64,000 nt of DNA, taken from the NCBI GenBank assembly GCA_040397175.1, contig JBBAWM010000002.1:21572-85571 (forward strand), written 5' to 3'. The stretch's first letter is position 1. Every line of letters starts with the position of its first letter. The DNA comes from Candidatus Limnocylindrus sp. (GTDB lineage Bacteria; Chloroflexota; Limnocylindria; Limnocylindrales; Limnocylindraceae). The notes beneath the pieces were generated by a model. It searched no databases, was not told the DNA's origin, and saw nothing but the letters and a program-made list of their open reading frames with translations. The translations under genes and the position numbers were made by a program. Of this stretch, positions 6,456 through 45,064 are shown piece after piece.

Positions 6456-7363
6456 AACTCGCCTTCTGGCGAAAGAGTTCACCTGAGGACGAGAAGCGTG
6501 TGTCTGAGGCCATCACCCCCGCCTCAAACCCTCTCGCCAAGGCGCTGCGTCGATTCACCGCCCCAGAACCTGATTGGCAGGAGATTGAAGTAGCCCTGCT
6601 CGCCAGTGATGTTGGGCTGGTGGCTACCACCGCACTCATTCAAGCGGCGCGAGCTGGTGGTGGGGCCAGCGGGCGTGCTCGGGTACGGGCTGCCGCACTC
6701 AGGTTGCTTGGCGATGATCTGGCGCGCCTGAACGAGGAGGCGGATGTGGTGCTGCTCGTTGGCGTCAACGGCGTCGGGAAGACGACTACCGCCGCCAAGT
6801 TGGCGGCCCGAGCGAAAGGGGCTGGCCTCTCACCACTTCTTGTCGCTGCAGATACGTTTCGTGCGGCGGCGATCGATCAGCTGCGTGCGCTCGGCCTTCG
6901 TGAAGGAGTTGAAGTTGTCGAGGGACGCCCCGGCGGTGATCCCGCAGCCGCCATCCACGATGCGCTAACGCTGGCTGCGGCGCGAACCTATACCCCCGTC
7001 ATCATCGACACCGCTGGTCGGATGCAAACGCGGAGCGGCCTCATGGATGAGCTGGCCAAGATTCGGCGCGTCGTGTCGAAGGTTGCCCCGACGCGAACGG
7101 TCGAAGTACTGCTCGTCTTAGATGGTACCGCCGGACAGAACGGCCTCGCCCAAGCGCGTGGGTTCGACGCCTCGGCGGGGGTTGATGGCATCGTCCTGAC
7201 TAAGCTTGATAGTGGTGCGCGTGGTGGTGTGGCGCTGGCGGTGCGACGTGAGCTTGGCCTGCCGATTCGTTGGATCGGAACGGGCGAGCGTGCCACCGAC
7301 CTCGTGCCGTTCGCCGCTGAGGCGTACGTCGACGGGTTGTTAGGAGCGCCGACGAACTCCTGA
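6452..7363 (+). CDS. ftsY: signal recognition particle receptor FtsY (short form)
   Basis: The product has VLLVGVNGVGKTTTAAKLA and the DTAGR and TKLD motifs. A TTGA overlap joins it to smc. Confidence 0.9.
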   Translation: MKLAFWRKSSPEDEKRVSEAITPASNPLAKALRRFTAPEPDWQEIEVALLASDVGLVATTALIQAARAGGGASGRARVRAAALRLLGDDLARLNEEADVVLLVGVNGVGKTTTAAKLAARAKGAGLSPLLVAADTFRAAAIDQLRALGLREGVEVVEGRPGGDPAAAIHDALTLAAARTYTPVIIDTAGRMQTRSGLMDELAKIRRVVSKVAPTRTVEVLLVLDGTAGQNGLAQARGFDASAGVDGIVLTKLDSGARGGVALAVRRELGLPIRWIGTGERATDLVPFAAEAYVDGLLGAPTNS

Positions 7364-8572
7364 CGTTGGAATCTGCGAGAGCGATTGGATCCTGCCTAGT
7401 CGAGAGGCGGCAACGAAGAGGCCAACCGCAATTGAGGCGAGGCCGCCAACGACGAGCGCCGCACCACTCCCGGCTACGGAACTGCCGATCACTCCGCCGA
7501 TCACGATCCCCAGAAGCCGACCAAGGATGCCGATTCCGTCATTCGCAGCGTTCGCACGCCCCTGGAAGGCAGCCGGCAAGACGCGGCCACGGATTGCAGC
7601 CTGATTCGCCTCCCACACGGTTTCGAAGCCGTCGCTCAGCAGCTGGTGGCCGATGAGCATGGCGAAACCGATCAGGGTTGGGCCAGGCGCGAGTGGCACG
7701 AGGATCAAGCCGAAGCCCACGATCACCAGGCTGACAGAGATCGCACGCCCAACCCCGAGGAGTCGGGAGATGCGCTCGGTGAGTGTGCCGCCGAGGAAGG
7801 CTGCGATGCCACCCGTTGCAATGACCAGGCCGATCGCCTGTGGGCCAAGCCCTATCCCATTCGTGATGTAGAGCAGATAGGAGGAGCGGAAGAGCCCAAA
7901 GTAGAGGCCAATCACAAACGTCGCGACCAAGAGCGGCCGCATCAGCACGACGGACCATGTTTTCTGAAGCCCGTCGATGAGCTCACGCTGGAAGCTCAGC
8001 CGCGCAGATTCTGGTGGCAGCTTCGGTTCTGCCACACGGAGCAAGCCGATCAATATCGCCGAAACGATGTAGGTCGCAGCATCGATGCCGATAGCCGCTG
8101 GTCCACCAAACGCACCGATCAGGAGTCCAGCCGAACCAAATCCGAAGAATTCGGCGGCTCCCCGGATTGCCATCGTTCGCGCAAGAACGGCACGCAGCGA
8201 TGGGGCGTTCACGAGTCCAGCCACATAGCTTCGTTCGGCGATATCGAACGTGGTGGTGCACATACCGCTTACGGCACTCACCGCGATCAGATGGGGGAGG
8301 GTTACGCCTCCGAAGATGGCGGCAGCGAGCGGGATGGACCCGAGCAGCACCGCGCGCAAAAGATCGGTACCAATGAGAACGGGCTTGCGGGGGAGTCGGT
8401 CGATCCACACCCCAGCCAGCTGGCTTACGAACGCCCCTGCGATCAGGTCAACCGCGGCTAAGGCGGCCGCTTCTGCTGCGTTGATGTGCAAGCCAAGGAT
8501 GGCGAGGAGGGGGAGGGCAGCCCGCGTGATGAAGGAGCCGTAGGTCGAGACGGCCTGCGCGCTGATAAGCAT
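7340..8572 (-). CDS. MFS transporter (ORF extends to 9253 but the N-terminal ~200 aa is Arg/Ser-rich junk; likely start at 8572 or 8650)
   Basis: The product has more than ten hydrophobic segments and the MFS motif VWIDRLPRKPVL after TM2. It lies antisense between ftsY and ffh. Confidence 0.6.
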   Translation of the reverse strand: MLISAQAVSTYGSFITRAALPLLAILGLHINAAEAAALAAVDLIAGAFVSQLAGVWIDRLPRKPVLIGTDLLRAVLLGSIPLAAAIFGGVTLPHLIAVSAVSGMCTTTFDIAERSYVAGLVNAPSLRAVLARTMAIRGAAEFFGFGSAGLLIGAFGGPAAIGIDAATYIVSAILIGLLRVAEPKLPPESARLSFQRELIDGLQKTWSVVLMRPLLVATFVIGLYFGLFRSSYLLYITNGIGLGPQAIGLVIATGGIAAFLGGTLTERISRLLGVGRAISVSLVIVGFGLILVPLAPGPTLIGFAMLIGHQLLSDGFETVWEANQAAIRGRVLPAAFQGRANAANDGIGILGRLLGIVIGGVIGSSVAGSGAALVVGGLASIAVGLFVAASRLGRIQSLSQIPTSGVRRRS

Positions 8573-39463: not shown

Positions 39464-41011
39464 GTGACGCGATCGGTTAGCGAGATCGCTGCGGGCCTCG
39501 AACCCTCCCGTGGAGGTGTGGCACTACAGCCTGGAGCACGGCTGCACATCATTGGGGTTGGAGGCACTGCTGCACTCGCTGCAGCGCTCCACGCTAAAGC
39601 ACTCGGGCTGAGCGTCTCCGGTTACGACCAGGCGCTGGCAGGGGAGTCAGCGATGATTCTTTCGCACGCAGGGATTCCAGTTGGCTCATCTGCCAGCCCC
39701 GAGGTCCTGCGGTCCTGTGCGGCACTCAACGCCGAAAGCACGGTTGCCATCTCGAAGGCGATTACGAGTACCCAGCCGAATCATCCCGAAGTACTACTGG
39801 CACGAGAAGCGGGCGCACGAACCGTTTCTGTACAGCAGGTGATTGCTGATGCCGCCGCCACACGTGGCGGGCTCATGATCGGCGTTGCTGGTACGCATGG
39901 CAAAACAACCTCCACTGGATGGGTCCTTGATGCGCTCGTTCGTTCTGGGATGGACCTGTCAGCGTTTGTGGGCGGCCCACTCGATACAGGGCTCGGTACC
40001 CCTGCAGGCGCTCCCGTGCATATCGGATCTGGCCCTGGTTTCGTCGTCGAGGCTGATGAGTACGGTGGAAACTTCGACACTTACAACGTCGATCGCGCAC
40101 TGATCTTGAACGTGGATTGGGATCATCCTGATATCTTTGCTGACCGCCAGGCTGCCGTGGAAACGTTCGCACGATGGGCGGCCTATCCCGCAACGAACGG
40201 CGCTCTCTTCATCAACAGTGGCGATCAGGGTGGCGCTGAGCTCGCAGCACTGCTCGAGGCGGGAGAGAACCGCAACTTCTTCACCTTTGCAGCCTCAGCG
40301 ACGCCCGAAGTACCGCAGGCAGATGTGGTCGCGACGGTAGCGTCACGCGGGGCAGGCACTTTTTCAGTTTCCATCACGCACCTTTCTGACCGCGCCGCAC
40401 GTACAGCCCCAGCACTGCACGATCTTCTCAATCGTGAGCTGCCGATTGGGCTACTAGGTGCACACAACGCATCCAACGGCCTCGGCGTTGCCGTGCTTGC
40501 TGCAAGCGCTGGTGGCACCGCTGACGGGATTGCTGGATCACTCGCAACCTTTGGGGGTGTTGGTCGCCGCATGGAGGTCCGGTACGACCACAACTCCATT
40601 ACGGTGCTCGACGACTACGGTCATCACCCAACCGCCATTGACGCCACCATTGCGACAGTCCGTCAGCGGTATCCAGGCCGCACATTGGTTCTCGCCATTG
40701 AGCCGCTCACATACCACCGTACTGCTGCCCTGCTCGAAGGTCTTGCCCAGTCGTGCAGCGCCGCAGATAGGGTTGCAGTCGCACAGATCTTCGCCGTGCG
40801 CGACCTCGATACGACGATCGTATCGGCTACCAACCTTGCCGAACGCATCGCAGCCCTGGGCACACCGGCCACGGCACCAGGAACTGTCCTGGAGACAGCA
40901 GCAGCACTTCTTCCGAGCATTACGGCAGAGACAGTGGTCCTGGTGATGGGGGGCGGACGATCAACAGAGATCGCCGTTGCACTTGCTCAAGGCCTCGCAG
41001 CCGCGTCGTAG
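39464..41011 (+). CDS. Mur ligase family protein (MurC/Mpl-like UDP-N-acetylmuramate ligase)
   Basis: The product has the N-terminal motif HIIGVGGTAALAAAL, the ATP-site motif GVAGTHGKTTSTGW and the motif VVEADEYGGNF. Confidence 0.75.
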   Translation: MTRSVSEIAAGLEPSRGGVALQPGARLHIIGVGGTAALAAALHAKALGLSVSGYDQALAGESAMILSHAGIPVGSSASPEVLRSCAALNAESTVAISKAITSTQPNHPEVLLAREAGARTVSVQQVIADAAATRGGLMIGVAGTHGKTTSTGWVLDALVRSGMDLSAFVGGPLDTGLGTPAGAPVHIGSGPGFVVEADEYGGNFDTYNVDRALILNVDWDHPDIFADRQAAVETFARWAAYPATNGALFINSGDQGGAELAALLEAGENRNFFTFAASATPEVPQADVVATVASRGAGTFSVSITHLSDRAARTAPALHDLLNRELPIGLLGAHNASNGLGVAVLAASAGGTADGIAGSLATFGGVGRRMEVRYDHNSITVLDDYGHHPTAIDATIATVRQRYPGRTLVLAIEPLTYHRTAALLEGLAQSCSAADRVAVAQIFAVRDLDTTIVSATNLAERIAALGTPATAPGTVLETAAALLPSITAETVVLVMGGGRSTEIAVALAQGLAAAS

Positions 41012-41041
41012 CAGGTGCGCCGCGGGGCAGGGGATGGGGGC

Positions 41042-42652
41042 CTAGGCGCCTTCCGGTGAGCCGGCCGCAGCATCAGGGCCAGGTGGCGGCTGCGTAGCAG
41101 CCAGAGCGGCACGTTCCTTCGCCTGCACGCTCTCGGGTCGCGAGAAGAGGGGATGGCCGTCGGAGGTTAAGCAGCGACCCGTCGCCAGATCCCACTGCCA
41201 ACCATGGATGCTGCACGTCAGCGTCTCGCCGTCTGTCGTTCCGAAGCGGGTGAGGTCGGCCTTCATGTGCGGGCAGCGGCGCTGGATCTGCCAGCCGGTT
41301 AGGTCAAACGTCCCCTCGGTTGGGCCATTCTCAGCGTAGAAGCCCTCGGCGTACTGGATTCGGGCCGTCGAGAGGCACTTGAACCAGGTGTAGACGTAGT
41401 CGTTATAGGCACCTTTGCGCCACGCTGAGAAGCGAAGCGACAGGAAGAGGCTGTTGACCCAATCATCCGTTCGCGTGCGCACCAGGTGATCCAAGAGGTA
41501 GCGGGGGATCGTGAACCGGAAGTCCACCTCCCGGCCGTCATCCGCGAGGACGGACCGCTCTGGGAAATCGAGGAGGACAGCCTCGTCATCGGTCTGAATC
41601 TTGATCGCAGTGCCGATTCCATCACAGACGCGTGGGCCAAGGGCCATGAGTGGCTCTAGCCAGGCCTTCAGCTCGGGTACGAGGTTGCTTCGCGGGCCCG
41701 CCCACAATGCTTTCTCCGCTGCAATGACAGGAGCCATGTCGGCTGCGTATCTGCGCAAATACACTTCCTTATTGGCAAAGACATCTTGCACAGACAGATC
41801 ACCCTGCGCGTGCTGTACCTCGAATACACCCGCGTTGTTGAATTGGCCGACGCTCCCCGGGAGCATCAGAACGGCCGCCTGACCCTCAGCCTGCAGGCGC
41901 TCAACCATGAAGCGCTGGTCGGGGAAGATCGAATCATCGGCATCGTGCACGTCGTTCCAGCGGAAAAGCTCGTCATCGAGGAAGCAGGGGGGTCCCGCAG
42001 AGGGGATCACCACACGGGGGGAGATGATCTCCACGTAGCGAGCGGCGCGGGTGAACTGCGCGGCACGCTTCTTCTTTGCGAGTGCCTCGGCGGCCTTCGC
42101 CGGCATCTCGTAGACCATGGGGTACCAGATCGCACCGCTGAACTGCAGAAGGCAGATGTCAATCGCTCCCTGCACCAGGAGTCGGTCCGGGTCGGTTGGA
42201 CGGCTGTCGTTGAGGTTTAGCAGGCGCTCTACGCCGTCGTCGATGAGGAGCGCCGAATCACCAATGGGTCCGTCTGTGGGGGCCGTGAGGGCCTCTACGA
42301 CGATGCTGAGGCCACCGTGGCGCACAGGGACGCCGGACTGCGTTTCGATAAACGAATGAAAACCGAGCTCTTGGAGAGCCTCCTTGAGCTCCGGGAGCGG
42401 GTAGGCGGGGAGAATGACCACCGCGTCCTTGTTGCAGTAGGTCTTGAGCCATTTAGGGTCAAAGTGGTCCCGGTGCAGGTGGCTGATATAGAGGTAATCG
42501 GTGGCGCCGAGGGCGGCATGATCGAGCTTGTCGTTTCGTGGATATGGGAACCAGCCTGCGTAATACGCCGGATTAAACCAGGGGTCGCACAGGATCGAGC
42601 CGTGTGCGGTGTGGATCTTAACTCCGGCTTGGGCGATGAATTCAATCCGCAT
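41042..42652 (-). CDS. MBL-fold metallo-hydrolase fused to C-terminal Rieske [2Fe-2S] domain
   Basis: The N-terminus has the MBL motif YISHLHRDHFD. The C-terminus has the Rieske ligands CPHMKAD...CSIHGWQWD. Confidence 0.7.
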   Translation of the reverse strand: MRIEFIAQAGVKIHTAHGSILCDPWFNPAYYAGWFPYPRNDKLDHAALGATDYLYISHLHRDHFDPKWLKTYCNKDAVVILPAYPLPELKEALQELGFHSFIETQSGVPVRHGGLSIVVEALTAPTDGPIGDSALLIDDGVERLLNLNDSRPTDPDRLLVQGAIDICLLQFSGAIWYPMVYEMPAKAAEALAKKKRAAQFTRAARYVEIISPRVVIPSAGPPCFLDDELFRWNDVHDADDSIFPDQRFMVERLQAEGQAAVLMLPGSVGQFNNAGVFEVQHAQGDLSVQDVFANKEVYLRRYAADMAPVIAAEKALWAGPRSNLVPELKAWLEPLMALGPRVCDGIGTAIKIQTDDEAVLLDFPERSVLADDGREVDFRFTIPRYLLDHLVRTRTDDWVNSLFLSLRFSAWRKGAYNDYVYTWFKCLSTARIQYAEGFYAENGPTEGTFDLTGWQIQRRCPHMKADLTRFGTTDGETLTCSIHGWQWDLATGRCLTSDGHPLFSRPESVQAKERAALAATQPPPGPDAAAGSPEGA

Positions 42653-42798
42653 GGGGGGAGGATAGCGATGATTCGTGCTCGCCGCCCAGGTCCCTTTGTC
42701 ACATAACTATCATTATCGGAACCAAGAGCGGAAGAACCCCAGCACGGAGCCGCCTCGTGTAACTGTCCCCCTGCAGGTGCTCGGGTTCGGTTTCCGGG

Positions 42799-44085
42799 TT
42801 AGAGCAGCTTCGCTGTCGAGTTGCGCTTCAGCCGTTTCAGTTCGCTGGCCATCTCAGGTGTGGCAAAACCTGTGACATGGAGCGCGTCCTCGTCGTAGGC
42901 CACTTGGATGCCGCCTCGGGCGCGAATCGCCTCAACCTCCCCCACCGCGGTGTATGGGAGGCGGAGGTCGACAGGGGTCCCTTGGCGCTGAAGCGCCTCT
43001 TCAAGGGCGCTGCGGAGCGGGCCAAGGCCGATGCCCGTCGCCGCCGAGACGCCGAGCACCGCGGGGTCGATTTCACGCGCATGCATCTGCGCTGCGTCGA
43101 TCTTGTTGGCGGCAATGATGCGCGGCTTCTCAGCGGCACCGAGTTCGTCGAGAACTGCCTGCACGGTGGCGCGATGCTCCAAGGCGTGATGGTCGGAGGC
43201 GTCGACAACTTCTAGGAGTAGGTCTGCACGGGAGACCTCCTCGAGGGTGGCGCGGAATGCGTCGACGAGCTGGTGTGGCAGCTTATGAATGAACCCGACC
43301 GTATCCGTCACGATGGCGGTGAGGCCACCGGGGAGACGCACCTTCCGGCTCGTTGGATCGAGCGTCGCGAAGAGGCGATCTTCGGCCAGCACCACGCTGC
43401 TGCCAACGAGACTATTCAACAGCGTTGATTTACCGGCGTTCGTGTAGCCAACAATGGCAACGGTCGGCTCGCCGCGTGTGGTGCGGCTCTTTGCGCCCGT
43501 CTCGCGGCTGCGGCGAACCTGATCGACGCGCGCCTTCATTACCGAGATGCGATCGCGGATCAGTCGGCGGTCAGTTTCAAGCTGCGACTCACCGGGGCCG
43601 CGTGTGCCGATGCCGCCGCCCGTACGCGAAAGGTGTGTCCAGAGCTTTGTCAGTCGTGGCAGCTGATATTCCAGCTGTGCCAGTTCTACTTGCAATCGAC
43701 CCTCACGCGTTCTGGCATGCAGGGCGAAGATGTCGAGGATGAGTCGGCTTCGGTCAATGACCTTCACGCCGAGTACCTCTTCGAGACCGCGCTGCTGTGT
43801 TGGCGAAAGCTCATCATCGGCGATGAGTACGGTGAAGCCCGTCTCGACCTTTGCGGCAAGTAGTTCCTGGGCTTTGCCGGCGCCGATGTAGGTGTCGGGA
43901 TCGGGGTGCCGTCGCTGCTGCCACTCAGCGCCAACGACTTCAGCACCCGCCGTACGAGCGAGGCTCGCTAATTCTTGAAGGCTATCCTCAGCTGGCCAGC
44001 CCACGTCGCTACCAGTGTCGACTGCGATGAGAAAGGCGCGCTCTGGCGCGGGCGTCAGGTCAATCGGTGCGGTTTTCTTCGTCAC
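42799..44085 (-). CDS. hflX: GTPase HflX (GTG 44085; ORF opens at 44499)
   Basis: The product has VAIVGYTNAGKSTLLNSL, DTVGF and NKID. Its N-terminus is ERAFLIAVDTG. Confidence 0.85.
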   Translation of the reverse strand: MTKKTAPIDLTPAPERAFLIAVDTGSDVGWPAEDSLQELASLARTAGAEVVGAEWQQRRHPDPDTYIGAGKAQELLAAKVETGFTVLIADDELSPTQQRGLEEVLGVKVIDRSRLILDIFALHARTREGRLQVELAQLEYQLPRLTKLWTHLSRTGGGIGTRGPGESQLETDRRLIRDRISVMKARVDQVRRSRETGAKSRTTRGEPTVAIVGYTNAGKSTLLNSLVGSSVVLAEDRLFATLDPTSRKVRLPGGLTAIVTDTVGFIHKLPHQLVDAFRATLEEVSRADLLLEVVDASDHHALEHRATVQAVLDELGAAEKPRIIAANKIDAAQMHAREIDPAVLGVSAATGIGLGPLRSALEEALQRQGTPVDLRLPYTAVGEVEAIRARGGIQVAYDEDALHVTGFATPEMASELKRLKRNSTAKLL

Positions 44086-44092
44086 TGTCCCT

Positions 44093-45064
44093 CTAGCGTA
44101 CCGCGATCCGCAGCGCGTGCGGTAGGAGGTTCTGAGCAATCTCTGCTGCTGGACGCCCCCCCGTTGGGATCGTCTCAAACAGATCCTCACCGCGGTACCA
44201 GGTACGTTGTCGGCGGGCATAGGCCCACGTTCGTGTTGCTGCAGTGCCAATGGCTCGCTCGCGGTCCATCGTCTGGTCAAGATACGCCTGTGCTTCGCGA
44301 TAGCCGATCCCCGAGAGCGCTGGGGTTTCAGCGGGAAGTCGCGCAGCAAGCCGCTCGGTCTCCTGTACGAGACCACCATCAAACTGCGCCCGAACACGCG
44401 CTGCAATGGCGGCACGGTGTCGCTCAAAATCGGTGTCATCAATCTGCACGTACGCCGTTGCCGCAGCCCACGGGTTCTCCTCTTCGGCGAGCGGGTCACC
44501 GCCGAGGCGCACGATCTCCAGTGTTCGAATCAGACGCCGAGCACTCGCGGTAGCAACGGCATCTGCCGCCGCCGGATTCCGTTCACGGAGCTCCTTATCG
44601 AGCGGTTCGCGACCCACATTCGAGTACTGCAGTTCAAGCTGCTCACGAATCAGGGGGTTACTTGGCCGTGCTCCGCCCGAGAGGAAGCCCCTCAGCAGGC
44701 CACGCTGATAGAGACCGGTGCCGCCAACCACGATGGCGATCCCCACTCCCCCGCTTGCCTGAGCGTGGCCAGCGATGGCGGCGCGTGCGGCGTCAAGCCA
44801 GTCGTACAGGGTGAATGCATCGCTTGCCTCGGCAATGTCGATGCAGGCATGCGGCCGAACGGCGCGAATCTCGGTGCTGATCTTGTCAGTGCCGATGTCG
44901 AAGCCGCGAAACACTTGGCGCGAGTCTGCCGATACCAAAATCGAACTTACCCCTGCAGCGTCAAGGGCGTCCGCCAGCGCAAGTGCGGCGGCGCTCTTCC
45001 CTACCGCGGTAGGACCACCGATCGCGAGGATCGGTAGGGTCGGCATGCTATCGGGCGTAATCAA
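44093..45064 (-). CDS. miaA: tRNA dimethylallyltransferase
   Basis: The product has ILAIGGPTAVGKSAAALALA. Confidence 0.9.
   Translation of the reverse strand: MITPDSMPTLPILAIGGPTAVGKSAAALALADALDAAGVSSILVSADSRQVFRGFDIGTDKISTEIRAVRPHACIDIAEASDAFTLYDWLDAARAAIAGHAQASGGVGIAIVVGGTGLYQRGLLRGFLSGGARPSNPLIREQLELQYSNVGREPLDKELRERNPAAADAVATASARRLIRTLEIVRLGGDPLAEEENPWAAATAYVQIDDTDFERHRAAIAARVRAQFDGGLVQETERLAARLPAETPALSGIGYREAQAYLDQTMDRERAIGTAATRTWAYARRQRTWYRGEDLFETIPTGGRPAAEIAQNLLPHALRIAVR

What the first reader, a model, noticed from the sequence alone, without database searches (positions are those of the whole stretch)
41042..42652. MBL-fold metallo-hydrolase fused to a C-terminal Rieske [2Fe-2S] domain
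This is a single 536-aa minus-strand protein. Its N-terminus is an MBL-fold metallo-hydrolase domain (YISHLHRDHFD). Its C-terminal ~110 aa carry a complete Rieske ligand set (CPH...17 aa...CSIH). Pairing a redox cluster with a binuclear metallo-hydrolase suggests a redox-gated hydrolase or oxygenase-like enzyme of unknown substrate. It sits alone at the strand-switch point between the Mur ligase paralogue and hflX. Its 5' region has no Shine-Dalgarno; the mRNA upstream of the ATG reads CCUCCCCC. It is preceded by the most AT-rich stretch of the window (42653-42798).
Basis: partly seen in the sequence, partly recalled or inferred. Interest (0 to 1): 0.5.

Follow-up and report, generated by a model that had tools for sequence, protein, structure and literature searches.

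The report
NamH-type muramic acid hydroxylase gene
This gene is a Chloroflexota copy of NamH, the known oxygen-dependent enzyme that converts the N-acetyl group of the cell-wall precursor UDP-MurNAc into N-glycolyl, so the odd-looking domain fusion is a known family and not a new kind of enzyme.

Summary
The 536-aa minus-strand ORF (41042-42652), its HLHRDH motif and its CPH-17aa-CSIH Rieske ligands are all real. Rv3818 is NamH, the UDP-MurNAc hydroxylase of mycobacteria.

The window protein is 95-96% identical to Candidatus Limnocylindrus (Chloroflexota) proteins. It is 47-51% identical over its full length, with the same three domains, to Mycobacterium, Nocardia, Rhodococcus and Glycomyces proteins. 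It is therefore an oxygenase with a known likely substrate, not a redox-gated hydrolase.

The MBL-like domain lacks the conserved motif-3 and motif-5 histidines of zinc hydrolases. Its closest solved relatives by sequence are the diiron hydroxylases FrsH and CmlA. I infer an iron (probably diiron) site fed by the Rieske cluster.

A MurC-like ligase sits convergent to namH in two Chloroflexota lineages.

The missing Shine-Dalgarno is real. A conserved TANNNT hexamer 6-7 nt before the start codon supports a leaderless mRNA.

The "most AT-rich 146 nt" claim is wrong (60% GC), but the gap holds a perfectly conserved 23-nt AT-rich element of unknown role.

Verdict: new member of a known family, modest interest.

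The parts
41042..42652 (-). namH-like coding sequence: 536 aa, ATG start, TAG stop.
   Evidence: ORF list and sequence. The N-terminus aligns from residue 1 with homologues. GC 61.7% and GC3 74.9%, similar to neighbouring genes.
41804..42652 (-). MBL-like (alpha-beta-beta-alpha) catalytic domain, about aa 1-283. Presumed iron site and site of O2 activation.
42464..42481 (-). H58-L-H60-R-D62-H63, MBL motif 2. Candidate metal ligands together with D149 and D127 or D132.
   Evidence: H58, H60 and H63 are 96% conserved and D62 is invariant in 56 homologues. D132 and D149 are 96% conserved. No other conserved His exists in the domain. The motif aligns with HNHQDH of CmlA, and D149 aligns with CmlA D403.
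41330..41683 (-). SCP2-like middle domain (aa 324-441), Pfam PF25451 'Rv3818-like'. It has a conserved W398, L404-S405, R407, R412 patch.
41135..41320 (-). Compact Rieske [2Fe-2S] module (about aa 445-506). Ligand boxes are C460-P-H462 (41267-41275) and C480-S-I-H483 (41204-41215).
   Evidence: Pfam Rieske 35.7 bits, cut-off 20.3. Profile hits to T4moC E=1.7e-8 and SxtT E=3.8e-8. Ligands invariant or nearly so.
41045..41134 (-). C-terminal helix and Pro/Ala-rich tail (aa 507-536). Poorly conserved, with the last residues disordered.
   Evidence: pLDDT drops to 62 and then 41 over the last two 10-residue blocks. Most homologues cover only 94-97% of the query.
42659..42664 (-). TATCCT, a -10-like TANNNT hexamer ending 6 nt before the A of the ATG. 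Candidate promoter of a leaderless namH mRNA.
   Evidence: Conserved as CTATCCTC in relatives whose intergenic DNA has otherwise diverged. TACCAT or TATCCT sits at 6-7 nt in the distant loci L012-L016. No SD at namH, whereas most neighbours have one.
42699..42721 (-). Perfectly conserved AT-rich 23-mer TTCCGATAATGATAGTTATGTGA, 47-69 nt upstream of the ATG. Role unknown.
   Evidence: Alignment A3. Unique in the window. In 31 high-GC metagenome loci it always lies between hflX and namH, plus one locus without namH. No Rfam match.
39464..41011 (+). MurC-like Mur ligase (515 aa), convergent with namH across a 30-nt gap. Conserved partner gene.
   Evidence: NCBIfam murC 228.8 bits, below the 335.1 cut-off, and mpl 130.9 bits. 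All three Mur ligase Pfam domains are present. It is adjacent to namH in Limnocylindrus loci and adjacent or within about 4.4 kb in the distant Chloroflexia MAGs L012-L016, despite rearranged yajQ.

Best explanation
The gene encodes an orthologue of NamH, the UDP-N-acetylmuramic acid hydroxylase, in a Candidatus Limnocylindrus-like Chloroflexota genome.

Proposed mechanism:
1. Electrons from NAD(P)H pass through an unidentified reductase or ferredoxin to the C-terminal Rieske [2Fe-2S] cluster (C460, H462, C480, H483).
2. They move on to an iron centre in the N-terminal MBL-like domain (H58, H60, D62, H63, D149, plus D127 or D132).
3. That centre activates O2 and inserts one oxygen atom into the methyl of the N-acetyl group of UDP-MurNAc, giving UDP-N-glycolylmuramic acid.
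4. The product is passed to MurC and built into peptidoglycan.

The three-His, three-carboxylate ligand pattern and the specific sequence kinship to CmlA and FrsH suggest a CmlA-like diiron centre, not a di-zinc hydrolytic site. The SCP2-like middle domain, with conserved arginines, probably helps hold the nucleotide-sugar.

The gene probably has its own promoter and a leaderless mRNA.

Shown here: the architecture, the ligand conservation, the homology and the gene neighbourhood. Inferred: the substrate, the metal nuclearity, the electron path and the transcript start.
For: Family assignment:
- Pfam SCP2_Rv3818 E=1.1e-43 plus Rieske.
- More than 4500 homologues, many named 'UDP-MurNAc hydroxylase' by JGI.
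- 47-51% identity over residues 1-505 to proteins of Mycobacterium, Mycolicibacterium, Nocardia, Rhodococcus, Glycomyces and Micromonosporaceae. Several of these genera are the ones reported to carry namH and MurNGlyc (PMC6194230).
- Mycobacterial homologues have the identical three-domain layout and lie next to an acyltransferase gene. From memory, Rv3816c is an acyltransferase near Rv3818.

Oxygenase, not hydrolase:
- The only conserved His residues in the MBL-like domain are in HxHxDH, and the other conserved candidate ligands are Asp.
- The family profile hits the diiron hydroxylases FrsH (E=9e-17) and CmlA (E=2e-14), far ahead of any hydrolase (NAPE-PLD E=2.4e-8).
- NamH and CMAH catalyse mono-oxygenation of an N-acetyl methyl group (PMC6481270, PMC4819959, PMC10050696).

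Pathway link: the MurC-like gene is convergent and adjacent in Limnocylindrus, and adjacent or within about 4.4 kb in distant Chloroflexia MAGs where yajQ has moved.

Leaderless mRNA.
Against: - No biochemical data exist for any Chloroflexota member.
- I found no report of N-glycolylmuramic acid in Chloroflexota. Some Actinobacteria with a namH homologue have no documented MurNGlyc (PMC6194230).
- The CmlA ligand list rests on my memory of Makris et al. 2013. The paper could not be read.
- No reductase partner gene was found near namH.
- In mycobacteria, the step at which NamH acts has been debated (PMC3605390).
Confidence: 0.72

Rival explanations
1. The protein uses the same family and chemistry but a different substrate. 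It would hydroxylate the N-acetyl group of another activated amino sugar (for example another UDP- or CMP-linked N-acetyl sugar used in a surface polysaccharide), not UDP-MurNAc.
For: The family is large and diverse: 2455 representatives at E<=0.001, with a 29-35% identity tier of unknown specificity. The animal homologue CMAH acts on CMP-Neu5Ac (PMC6481270). MurNGlyc has not been reported in Chloroflexota. Some namH-positive Actinobacteria lack documented MurNGlyc (PMC6194230).
Against: The window protein falls in the 40-58% identity tier together with the mycobacterial and nocardial proteins, not in the distant tier. It has the Rv3818-specific SCP2 domain at E=1e-43. Its conserved neighbour is a MurC-like ligase that uses UDP-MurNAc.
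Confidence: 0.2
2. This is the first reader's main reading: a binuclear MBL-fold metallo-hydrolase whose hydrolytic activity is switched by the redox state of the attached Rieske cluster.
Against: The motif-3 and motif-5 histidines of hydrolytic MBLs are not conserved. The closest sequence relatives with solved structures are diiron oxygenases. The characterised family member NamH is a hydroxylase needed for N-glycolylation (PMC10050696, PMC6194230). Incorporation of molecular oxygen into MurNGlyc is reported (Essers and Schoop 1978, cited in PMC6481270).
Confidence: 0.03
3. The gene is an accessory relic that is no longer functional or not expressed in this organism.
For: namH is non-essential in mycobacteria (PMC10050696). 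A related lineage (L088) lacks the gene at exactly this position. There is no SD.
Against: The reading frame is intact and all candidate ligands are present. Protein identity among Limnocylindrus-like populations is 79-100%, and the start-proximal hexamer is conserved. Composition matches the host genome.
Confidence: 0.03

Closest known systems
NamH (Rv3818 / MSMEG_6412), UDP-N-acetylmuramic acid hydroxylase of Mycobacterium and related Actinomycetota
   Same: Same three-domain order (MBL/UlaG-like, SCP2_Rv3818, C-terminal Rieske) and similar length. 47-51% identity over nearly the whole protein, with the same conserved metal ligands.
   Different: The host is Chloroflexota (Ca. Limnocylindrus), where N-glycolyl peptidoglycan has not been reported. 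Here the gene is paired with a MurC-like gene and has no SD, whereas actinobacterial genes have an SD and a different neighbourhood. It has a short non-conserved Pro/Ala tail.
CMAH, CMP-N-acetylneuraminic acid hydroxylase of deuterostomes
   Same: Same chemistry (N-acetyl to N-glycolyl on a nucleotide-activated sugar), a Rieske cluster and an MBL-fold domain. It is described as a distant homologue of the bacterial enzyme (PMC6481270, PMC4819959).
   Different: In CMAH the Rieske domain is N-terminal (coding positions 43-345, PMC5767959), whereas here it is C-terminal. The substrate is CMP-Neu5Ac and the electron donor is cytochrome b5 (PMC4819959). I did not align a CMAH sequence here.
CmlA / FrsH, MBL-fold diiron beta-hydroxylases of non-ribosomal peptide pathways
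   Same: These are the closest solved structures by sequence profile (E=9e-17 and 2e-14) and by Foldseek. HxHxDH and the bridging Asp align. Neither has the motif-5 His. Both are O2-activating hydroxylases of unactivated C-H bonds.
   Different: CmlA and FrsH have a distinct N-terminal domain and act on carrier-protein-bound amino acids. They have no Rieske or SCP2 domain. Only their C-terminal halves (chain residues about 253-481) match. The Glu377 equivalent here would be an Asp whose position is uncertain.
Rieske non-heme iron oxygenases (e.g. SxtT, KshA, NdmA)
   Same: The Rieske module is of the oxygenase/ferredoxin type (CxH...CxxHGW...GxC). SxtT is the best single-sequence PDB hit. The logic is the same: a Rieske cluster feeds an iron site that activates O2.
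   Different: The catalytic domain is an MBL fold, not the catalytic fold of Rieske oxygenase alpha subunits. No hit to any such catalytic domain was found.
Hydrolytic MBL-fold enzymes of the UlaG / NAPE-PLD / Igni18 group
   Different: Those enzymes are hydrolases. Here the motif-3 and motif-5 His residues are not conserved, and a redox domain is fused.

Membership tests
NamH / UDP-MurNAc hydroxylase (Rv3818 family) | Domain order: MBL-like, then SCP2_Rv3818 (PF25451), then C-terminal Rieske. | tested here: met
   for the window protein. One search shows the same layout in M. triplex, Mycolicibacterium septicum and a Ktedonobacteraceae homologue.
NamH / UDP-MurNAc hydroxylase (Rv3818 family) | Full-length similarity to the proteins of genera with namH and N-glycolyl peptidoglycan. 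| tested here: met
   47-51% identity over query residues 1 to about 505 in Mycobacterium, Nocardia, Rhodococcus, Glycomyces and Micromonosporaceae. Genus list from PMC6194230.
NamH / UDP-MurNAc hydroxylase (Rv3818 family) | Conserved Rieske ligands and HxHxDH. | tested here: met
   C460, H462 and C480 are invariant and H483 is present in 55 of 56. H58, H60 and H63 are 96% conserved and D62 is invariant.
NamH / UDP-MurNAc hydroxylase (Rv3818 family) | Catalytic activity: O2-dependent conversion of UDP-MurNAc to UDP-MurNGlyc, and MurNGlyc present in the wall. | not testable with these tools
   Needs enzyme assay, complementation or muropeptide mass spectrometry. The only indirect support is the conserved MurC-like neighbour.
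CMAH (CMP-Neu5Ac hydroxylase) | N-terminal Rieske domain followed by the MBL-fold domain. | tested here: not met
   The Rieske is at aa 445-506 of 536 here. In CMAH it is at the N-terminus (PMC5767959).
CmlA-type diiron beta-hydroxylases | MBL-fold domain with a three-His, three-carboxylate diiron ligand set. The ligand list is from my memory of Makris et al. 2013. | tested here: inconclusive
   HxHxDH and D149 align with CmlA HNHQDH and D403. The Glu377 equivalent could be D127 or D132, in a loop where the alignment is unreliable. No coordinates were available to check geometry.
CmlA-type diiron beta-hydroxylases | CmlA-specific N-terminal domain and an NRPS carrier-protein substrate context. 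| tested here: not met
   Only CmlA and FrsH chain residues about 253-481 match. No NRPS genes are near.
Rieske non-heme iron oxygenase alpha subunits | Rieske domain joined to the family's own catalytic domain carrying a mononuclear 2-His-1-carboxylate iron site. | tested here: not met
   Matches to SxtT, KshA and NdmA cover only the Rieske part, aa 454-513. The catalytic part is an MBL fold.
Binuclear zinc MBL hydrolases | All five metal-binding motifs, including the motif-3 His and motif-5 His. | tested here: not met
   No conserved His outside HxHxDH in aa 1-300. The conserved residues at the candidate positions are D132, N148-D149 and Q170. Pfam MBL models score below cut-off.

The most novel reading that the evidence does not exclude
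Two linked readings remain open.

(a) NamH, and by extension CMAH, may form a distinct, structurally uncharacterised oxygenase class in which a built-in Rieske cluster feeds a CmlA-like diiron centre in an MBL fold.

(b) The abundant freshwater Chloroflexota Ca. Limnocylindrus, and other Chloroflexota that carry the gene, may make N-glycolylated peptidoglycan. That trait has so far been treated as actinobacterial. Here the gene would be expressed from a leaderless mRNA under a conserved 23-nt upstream element.
Probability: 0.4. Interest if true: 0.55.

Novelty: new member of a known kind. Interest (0 to 1): 0.3.

Why it matters
N-glycolylation of muramic acid changes how peptidoglycan resists lysozyme and beta-lactams, and how it is sensed by NOD2 (PMC2722178, PMC10050696). 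It is usually presented as a trait of mycobacteria and some related actinomycetes.

Intact, conserved namH orthologues in Limnocylindria, Ktedonobacteria and a Dormiibacterota MAG predict the modification in other phyla, including very abundant lake bacteria. That would matter for grazing and lysozyme resistance in plankton.

Neither NamH nor CMAH has a solved structure (PMC4819959). The CmlA-like ligand pattern gives a concrete, testable idea for how this family hydroxylates an unactivated acetyl methyl group.

For the genome scan itself, the result is mostly a correct re-annotation: the unusual fusion is a known enzyme.

Tried and rejected
- Genome scan with the 56-sequence alignment A1 failed because no stretch was conserved enough. 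I repeated it with the closer set A2.
- The afdb50 fold library was not available, so I could not look for CMAH or NamH AlphaFold entries.
- Raymond et al. 2005 and Makris et al. 2013 are not held. The original NamH assay details and the CmlA ligand list therefore rest on secondary citations and my memory.
- The sigma-70 promoter and terminator scan of 40800-43100 found no promoter, and only one terminator-like site, which lies inside the coding region. This is fewer than the number expected by chance.
- Rfam found nothing in the hflX-namH gap.
- A crude whole-window survey of start contexts crashed and was too noisy. I replaced it with the called genes of three syntenic loci.
- Clustering of neighbours in 77 loci, looking for a conserved reductase partner, found only mycobacterial synteny: an acyltransferase, seryl-tRNA synthetase and an FAD amine-oxidase-like protein in 14 loci. 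There was no ferredoxin reductase.
- The 19-mer metagenome scan gave 13 low-GC chance matches that I discarded.
- Model coordinates are not exposed, so Rieske-to-iron distances and the D127/D132 question could not be settled.
- I considered horizontal acquisition and found no compositional sign of it.
No other Mur ligase is in the window, so this cannot be judged.
Full report
**1. The observation**

The minus-strand ORF 41042..42652 exists, starts with ATG and encodes 536 aa. YISHLHRDHFD is at aa 55-65. The Rieske ligand boxes are C460-P-H462 and C480-S-I-H483, separated by 17 residues.

In an alignment of 56 homologues spanning 25-83% identity, C460, H462 and C480 are invariant and H483 is present in 55 of 56. 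H58, H60 and H63 are 96% conserved and D62 is invariant. These features are far beyond chance.

Pfam finds SCP2_Rv3818 (PF25451) at aa 324-441 with E=1.1e-43, and Rieske at aa 457-496 (35.7 bits, cut-off 20.3). The MBL models (Lactamase_B_3 and B_2) score below their cut-offs.

The Rieske part is compact. It matches Pfam profile positions 40-77 of 88, and residues 16-90 of the 111-aa ferredoxin T4moC.

**2. What it is**

Rv3818 is NamH, the hydroxylase that converts N-acetyl to N-glycolyl muramic acid in mycobacteria (PMC6194230, PMC10050696, PMC3605390, all citing Raymond et al. 2005).

A search of 5.8 billion proteins gave more than 4500 homologues at E<=1e-5. Many are named "UDP-MurNAc hydroxylase" by JGI, and the nearest named ones come from Chloroflexi and Candidatus Limnocylindrales.

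A scan of one genome per species found 577 loci that encode relatives. The window protein is 95-96% identical to Candidatus Limnocylindrus MAG proteins and shares their gene order. It is 47-51% identical over residues 1 to about 505 to proteins of Mycobacterium, Mycolicibacterium, Mycobacteroides, Nocardia, Rhodococcus, Glycomyces, Salininema and Micromonosporaceae. Ktedonobacteria, other Chloroflexota and a Dormiibacterota MAG fall in the same range.

The mycobacterial proteins have the same three Pfam domains at matching positions. The exhaustive representative search shows a 40-50% identity tier and a separate 29-35% tier. The actinobacterial proteins match the window protein at 46-51%, so they belong with the closer tier.

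I therefore file the gene as a NamH orthologue. The window comes from a Limnocylindrus-like Chloroflexota genome.

**3. Hydrolase or oxygenase**

In the MBL-like domain the only conserved histidines are those of HxHxDH. The other conserved candidate ligands are D132 (96%), N148-D149 (95% and 96%) and Q170 (95%). D127 is conserved only in the NamH tier. The motif-3 and motif-5 histidines of hydrolytic MBLs are therefore absent.

A profile of the family searched against all PDB sequences hits FrsH ("non-heme diiron monooxygenase", E=9e-17) and CmlA (E=2e-14) first. Both are well ahead of NAPE-PLD (2.4e-8) and TM1162 (9e-6). Foldseek also ranks FrsH and CmlA first.

In the HMM alignment, H58, H60, D62 and H63 pair with the HNHQDH of CmlA, and D149 pairs with CmlA D403. 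CmlA Glu377 lies in the loop just before D132.

From my memory of Makris et al. 2013 (not readable here), CmlA binds its diiron cluster with three His, two Asp and one Glu, and has no motif-5 His. FrsH and CmlA are experimentally iron-dependent hydroxylases (PMC7794379).

The pattern here (three His plus three Asp) fits that type of site. This is an inference. Nuclearity and the identity of the sixth ligand are open, because I could not obtain coordinates.

No NamH or CMAH structure is in the PDB copy, and none was known for CMAH in 2016 (PMC4819959). No paper in the searchable library links "diiron" with NamH or CMAH.

**4. Context**

Gene order in the window is RodZ-like(+), yajQ(+), MurC-like(+), then namH(-), hflX(-), miaA(-), RNase Y(-). 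namH is therefore co-directional with hflX (146-nt gap) and convergent with the MurC-like gene (30-nt gap).

The MurC-like ligase has all three Mur ligase domains. It scores 228.8 bits on the MurC model, whose cut-off is 335.1. No other Mur ligase is in the window.

The namH/MurC-like convergent pair recurs in all Limnocylindrus-like loci. It also recurs in "uncultured Chloroflexia" MAGs L013-L016, whose NamH is only 51-56% identical, even though yajQ there lies on the other side of namH. In L012 the ligase is about 4.4 kb away. It is absent near namH in Ktedonobacteria and Actinomycetota.

This conserved pairing with the enzyme that consumes UDP-MurNAc supports a role in peptidoglycan precursor synthesis. 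In mycobacteria NamH has been reported to interact with MurF, and the exact step of action was debated (PMC3605390).

Composition gives no sign of recent transfer (GC 61.7%, GC3 74.9%).

One related metagenome contig (L088) has hflX, the upstream element and the MurC-like gene but no namH. The gene is therefore gained or lost at this exact spot, consistent with its non-essentiality in mycobacteria (PMC10050696).

**5. The 5' region**

The sequence before the ATG is CGCTATCCTCCCCCC, with no SD. In three syntenic loci most neighbours (recA, yajQ, RodZ-like, ftsK, RNase J, hflX) carry GGAG-type SDs. In those loci namH is the only gene with a TANNNT hexamer 6-7 nt before the start.

That hexamer (TATCCT) is conserved as CTATCCTC in relatives at 79-83% protein identity, whose intergenic DNA is otherwise diverged. 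In the distant loci L012-L016 the same position holds TACCAT or TATCCT, 6-7 nt before ATG or GTG. L011 has GATAAT at 8 nt.

Ktedonobacterial and actinobacterial namH genes instead mostly have clear SDs such as AAGGAG or AGGAGG.

With about 18.5% A and 18.5% T, TANNNT at one of two positions is expected about 1% of the time (my calculation). The geometry is that of a -10 element placing the transcript start on the A of the start codon. A leaderless mRNA is therefore well supported comparatively, though not shown.

**6. The AT-rich claim and the 23-mer**

The 146-nt gap is 60.3% GC (window mean 62.9%) and is not among the lowest-GC stretches at 50-200 nt.

It does contain a 23-nt island, TTCCGATAATGATAGTTATGTGA (42699-42721, minus strand). 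At 16-30 nt this ranks among the 2-10 most AT-rich spots in the window. It is identical in all relatives aligned except one Limnocylindrus-like locus (L010), which has a single substitution.

It is unique in the window and has no Rfam match.

A metagenome scan with its 19-nt core found 45 stretches:
- 13 are unrelated low-GC chance matches.
- 31 are Limnocylindrus-like hflX-namH gaps.
- One is the namH-less L088.

The distance from the element to the ATG is 46 nt in the 95-100% identity group and 55-57 nt in the 79-90% group. The difference is about one helical turn. That would suit a protein-binding site that must face the promoter, but it is only suggestive.

From memory, its first 10 nt equal the first half of the E. 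coli Fur-box consensus. It also contains GATAAT followed 7 nt later by ATG-TGA. I could not decide between operator, second promoter or hflX 3' element.

**7. Comparison with known systems and verdict**

The protein meets every testable criterion for NamH membership. It fails the criteria for CMAH (reversed domain order), classical Rieske oxygenases (different catalytic fold), CmlA-type enzymes (no N-terminal CmlA domain, no NRPS context) and zinc MBL hydrolases (missing His motifs).

It works like a Rieske-fed iron monooxygenase.

New here:
- The host phylum. I found no literature on N-glycolyl muramic acid in Chloroflexota.
- The conserved pairing with a MurC-like gene.
- The leaderless start.
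- The conserved upstream element.
- The argument for a CmlA-like iron site.

I rate it a new member of a known kind with modest interest (0.3). Confidence in the functional assignment is about 0.7. Confidence in the diiron detail is about 0.5.

Noticed in passing
window 42699-42721 (minus strand): The 23-nt AT-rich element TTCCGATAATGATAGTTATGTGA is identical in relatives at 79-96% NamH identity apart from one single-base variant, while the flanks diverge. It lies 46 nt before the namH ATG in one group and 55-57 nt in another, a difference of about one helical turn. From memory, its first 10 nt match half of the E. coli Fur box. There is no Rfam hit.
   Followed up: partly
L088 (Ga0209596_1000235) about 7295-7421: A related contig (HflX 81%, MurC-like 53%) has hflX, the 19-mer element about 20 nt after the hflX stop, and then the end of the convergent MurC-like gene, with no namH between them. 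The gene is present or absent at this exact site among related lineages.
   Followed up: partly
window 39464-41011 (+): The MurC-like ligase scores 228.8 bits on NCBIfam murC (cut-off 335.1). It stays convergent with namH in two Chloroflexota lineages despite rearrangement of yajQ. Whether it is the only MurC of the genome or a specialised copy is unknown.
   Followed up: partly
window 42699-42715 (minus strand), inside the 23-mer: GATAAT is followed 7 nt later by ATG-TGA (a start codon directly followed by a stop). The element also reads as the mini-ORF ATG ATA GTT ATG TGA. The spacing equals that between TATCCT and the namH ATG, so the element could be a second leaderless start. This is untested.
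   Followed up: no
proteins P0159 and P0169 (alignment A1): Two family members at about 30% identity keep the Rieske Cys/His ligands but have lost H58, H60 and H63 (SSSGQDR, SSYSQDR). They would be members with a degenerate metal site in the MBL-like domain.
   Followed up: no
window 42799-44499 (minus strand): The mechanical ORF for hflX is 566 aa from an upstream GTG. The HflX model matches only aa 155-503, and syntenic gene calls give 428 aa, so the real gene is about 42799-44085.
   Followed up: yes
L008 (CAMAXG010000001.1): This record is titled 'Thermoflexus hugenholtzii JAD2 isolate MH-08apr19-222'. It carries a NamH 96% identical to the window's and the same gene order as Candidatus Limnocylindrus MAGs, so the record title is probably a mislabel.
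   Followed up: no
proteins P0159-P0270: A large, diverse tier at 29-35% identity has the same overall length and ligands as NamH. Its substrates are unknown, and it may include other N-acyl sugar hydroxylases.
   Followed up: no
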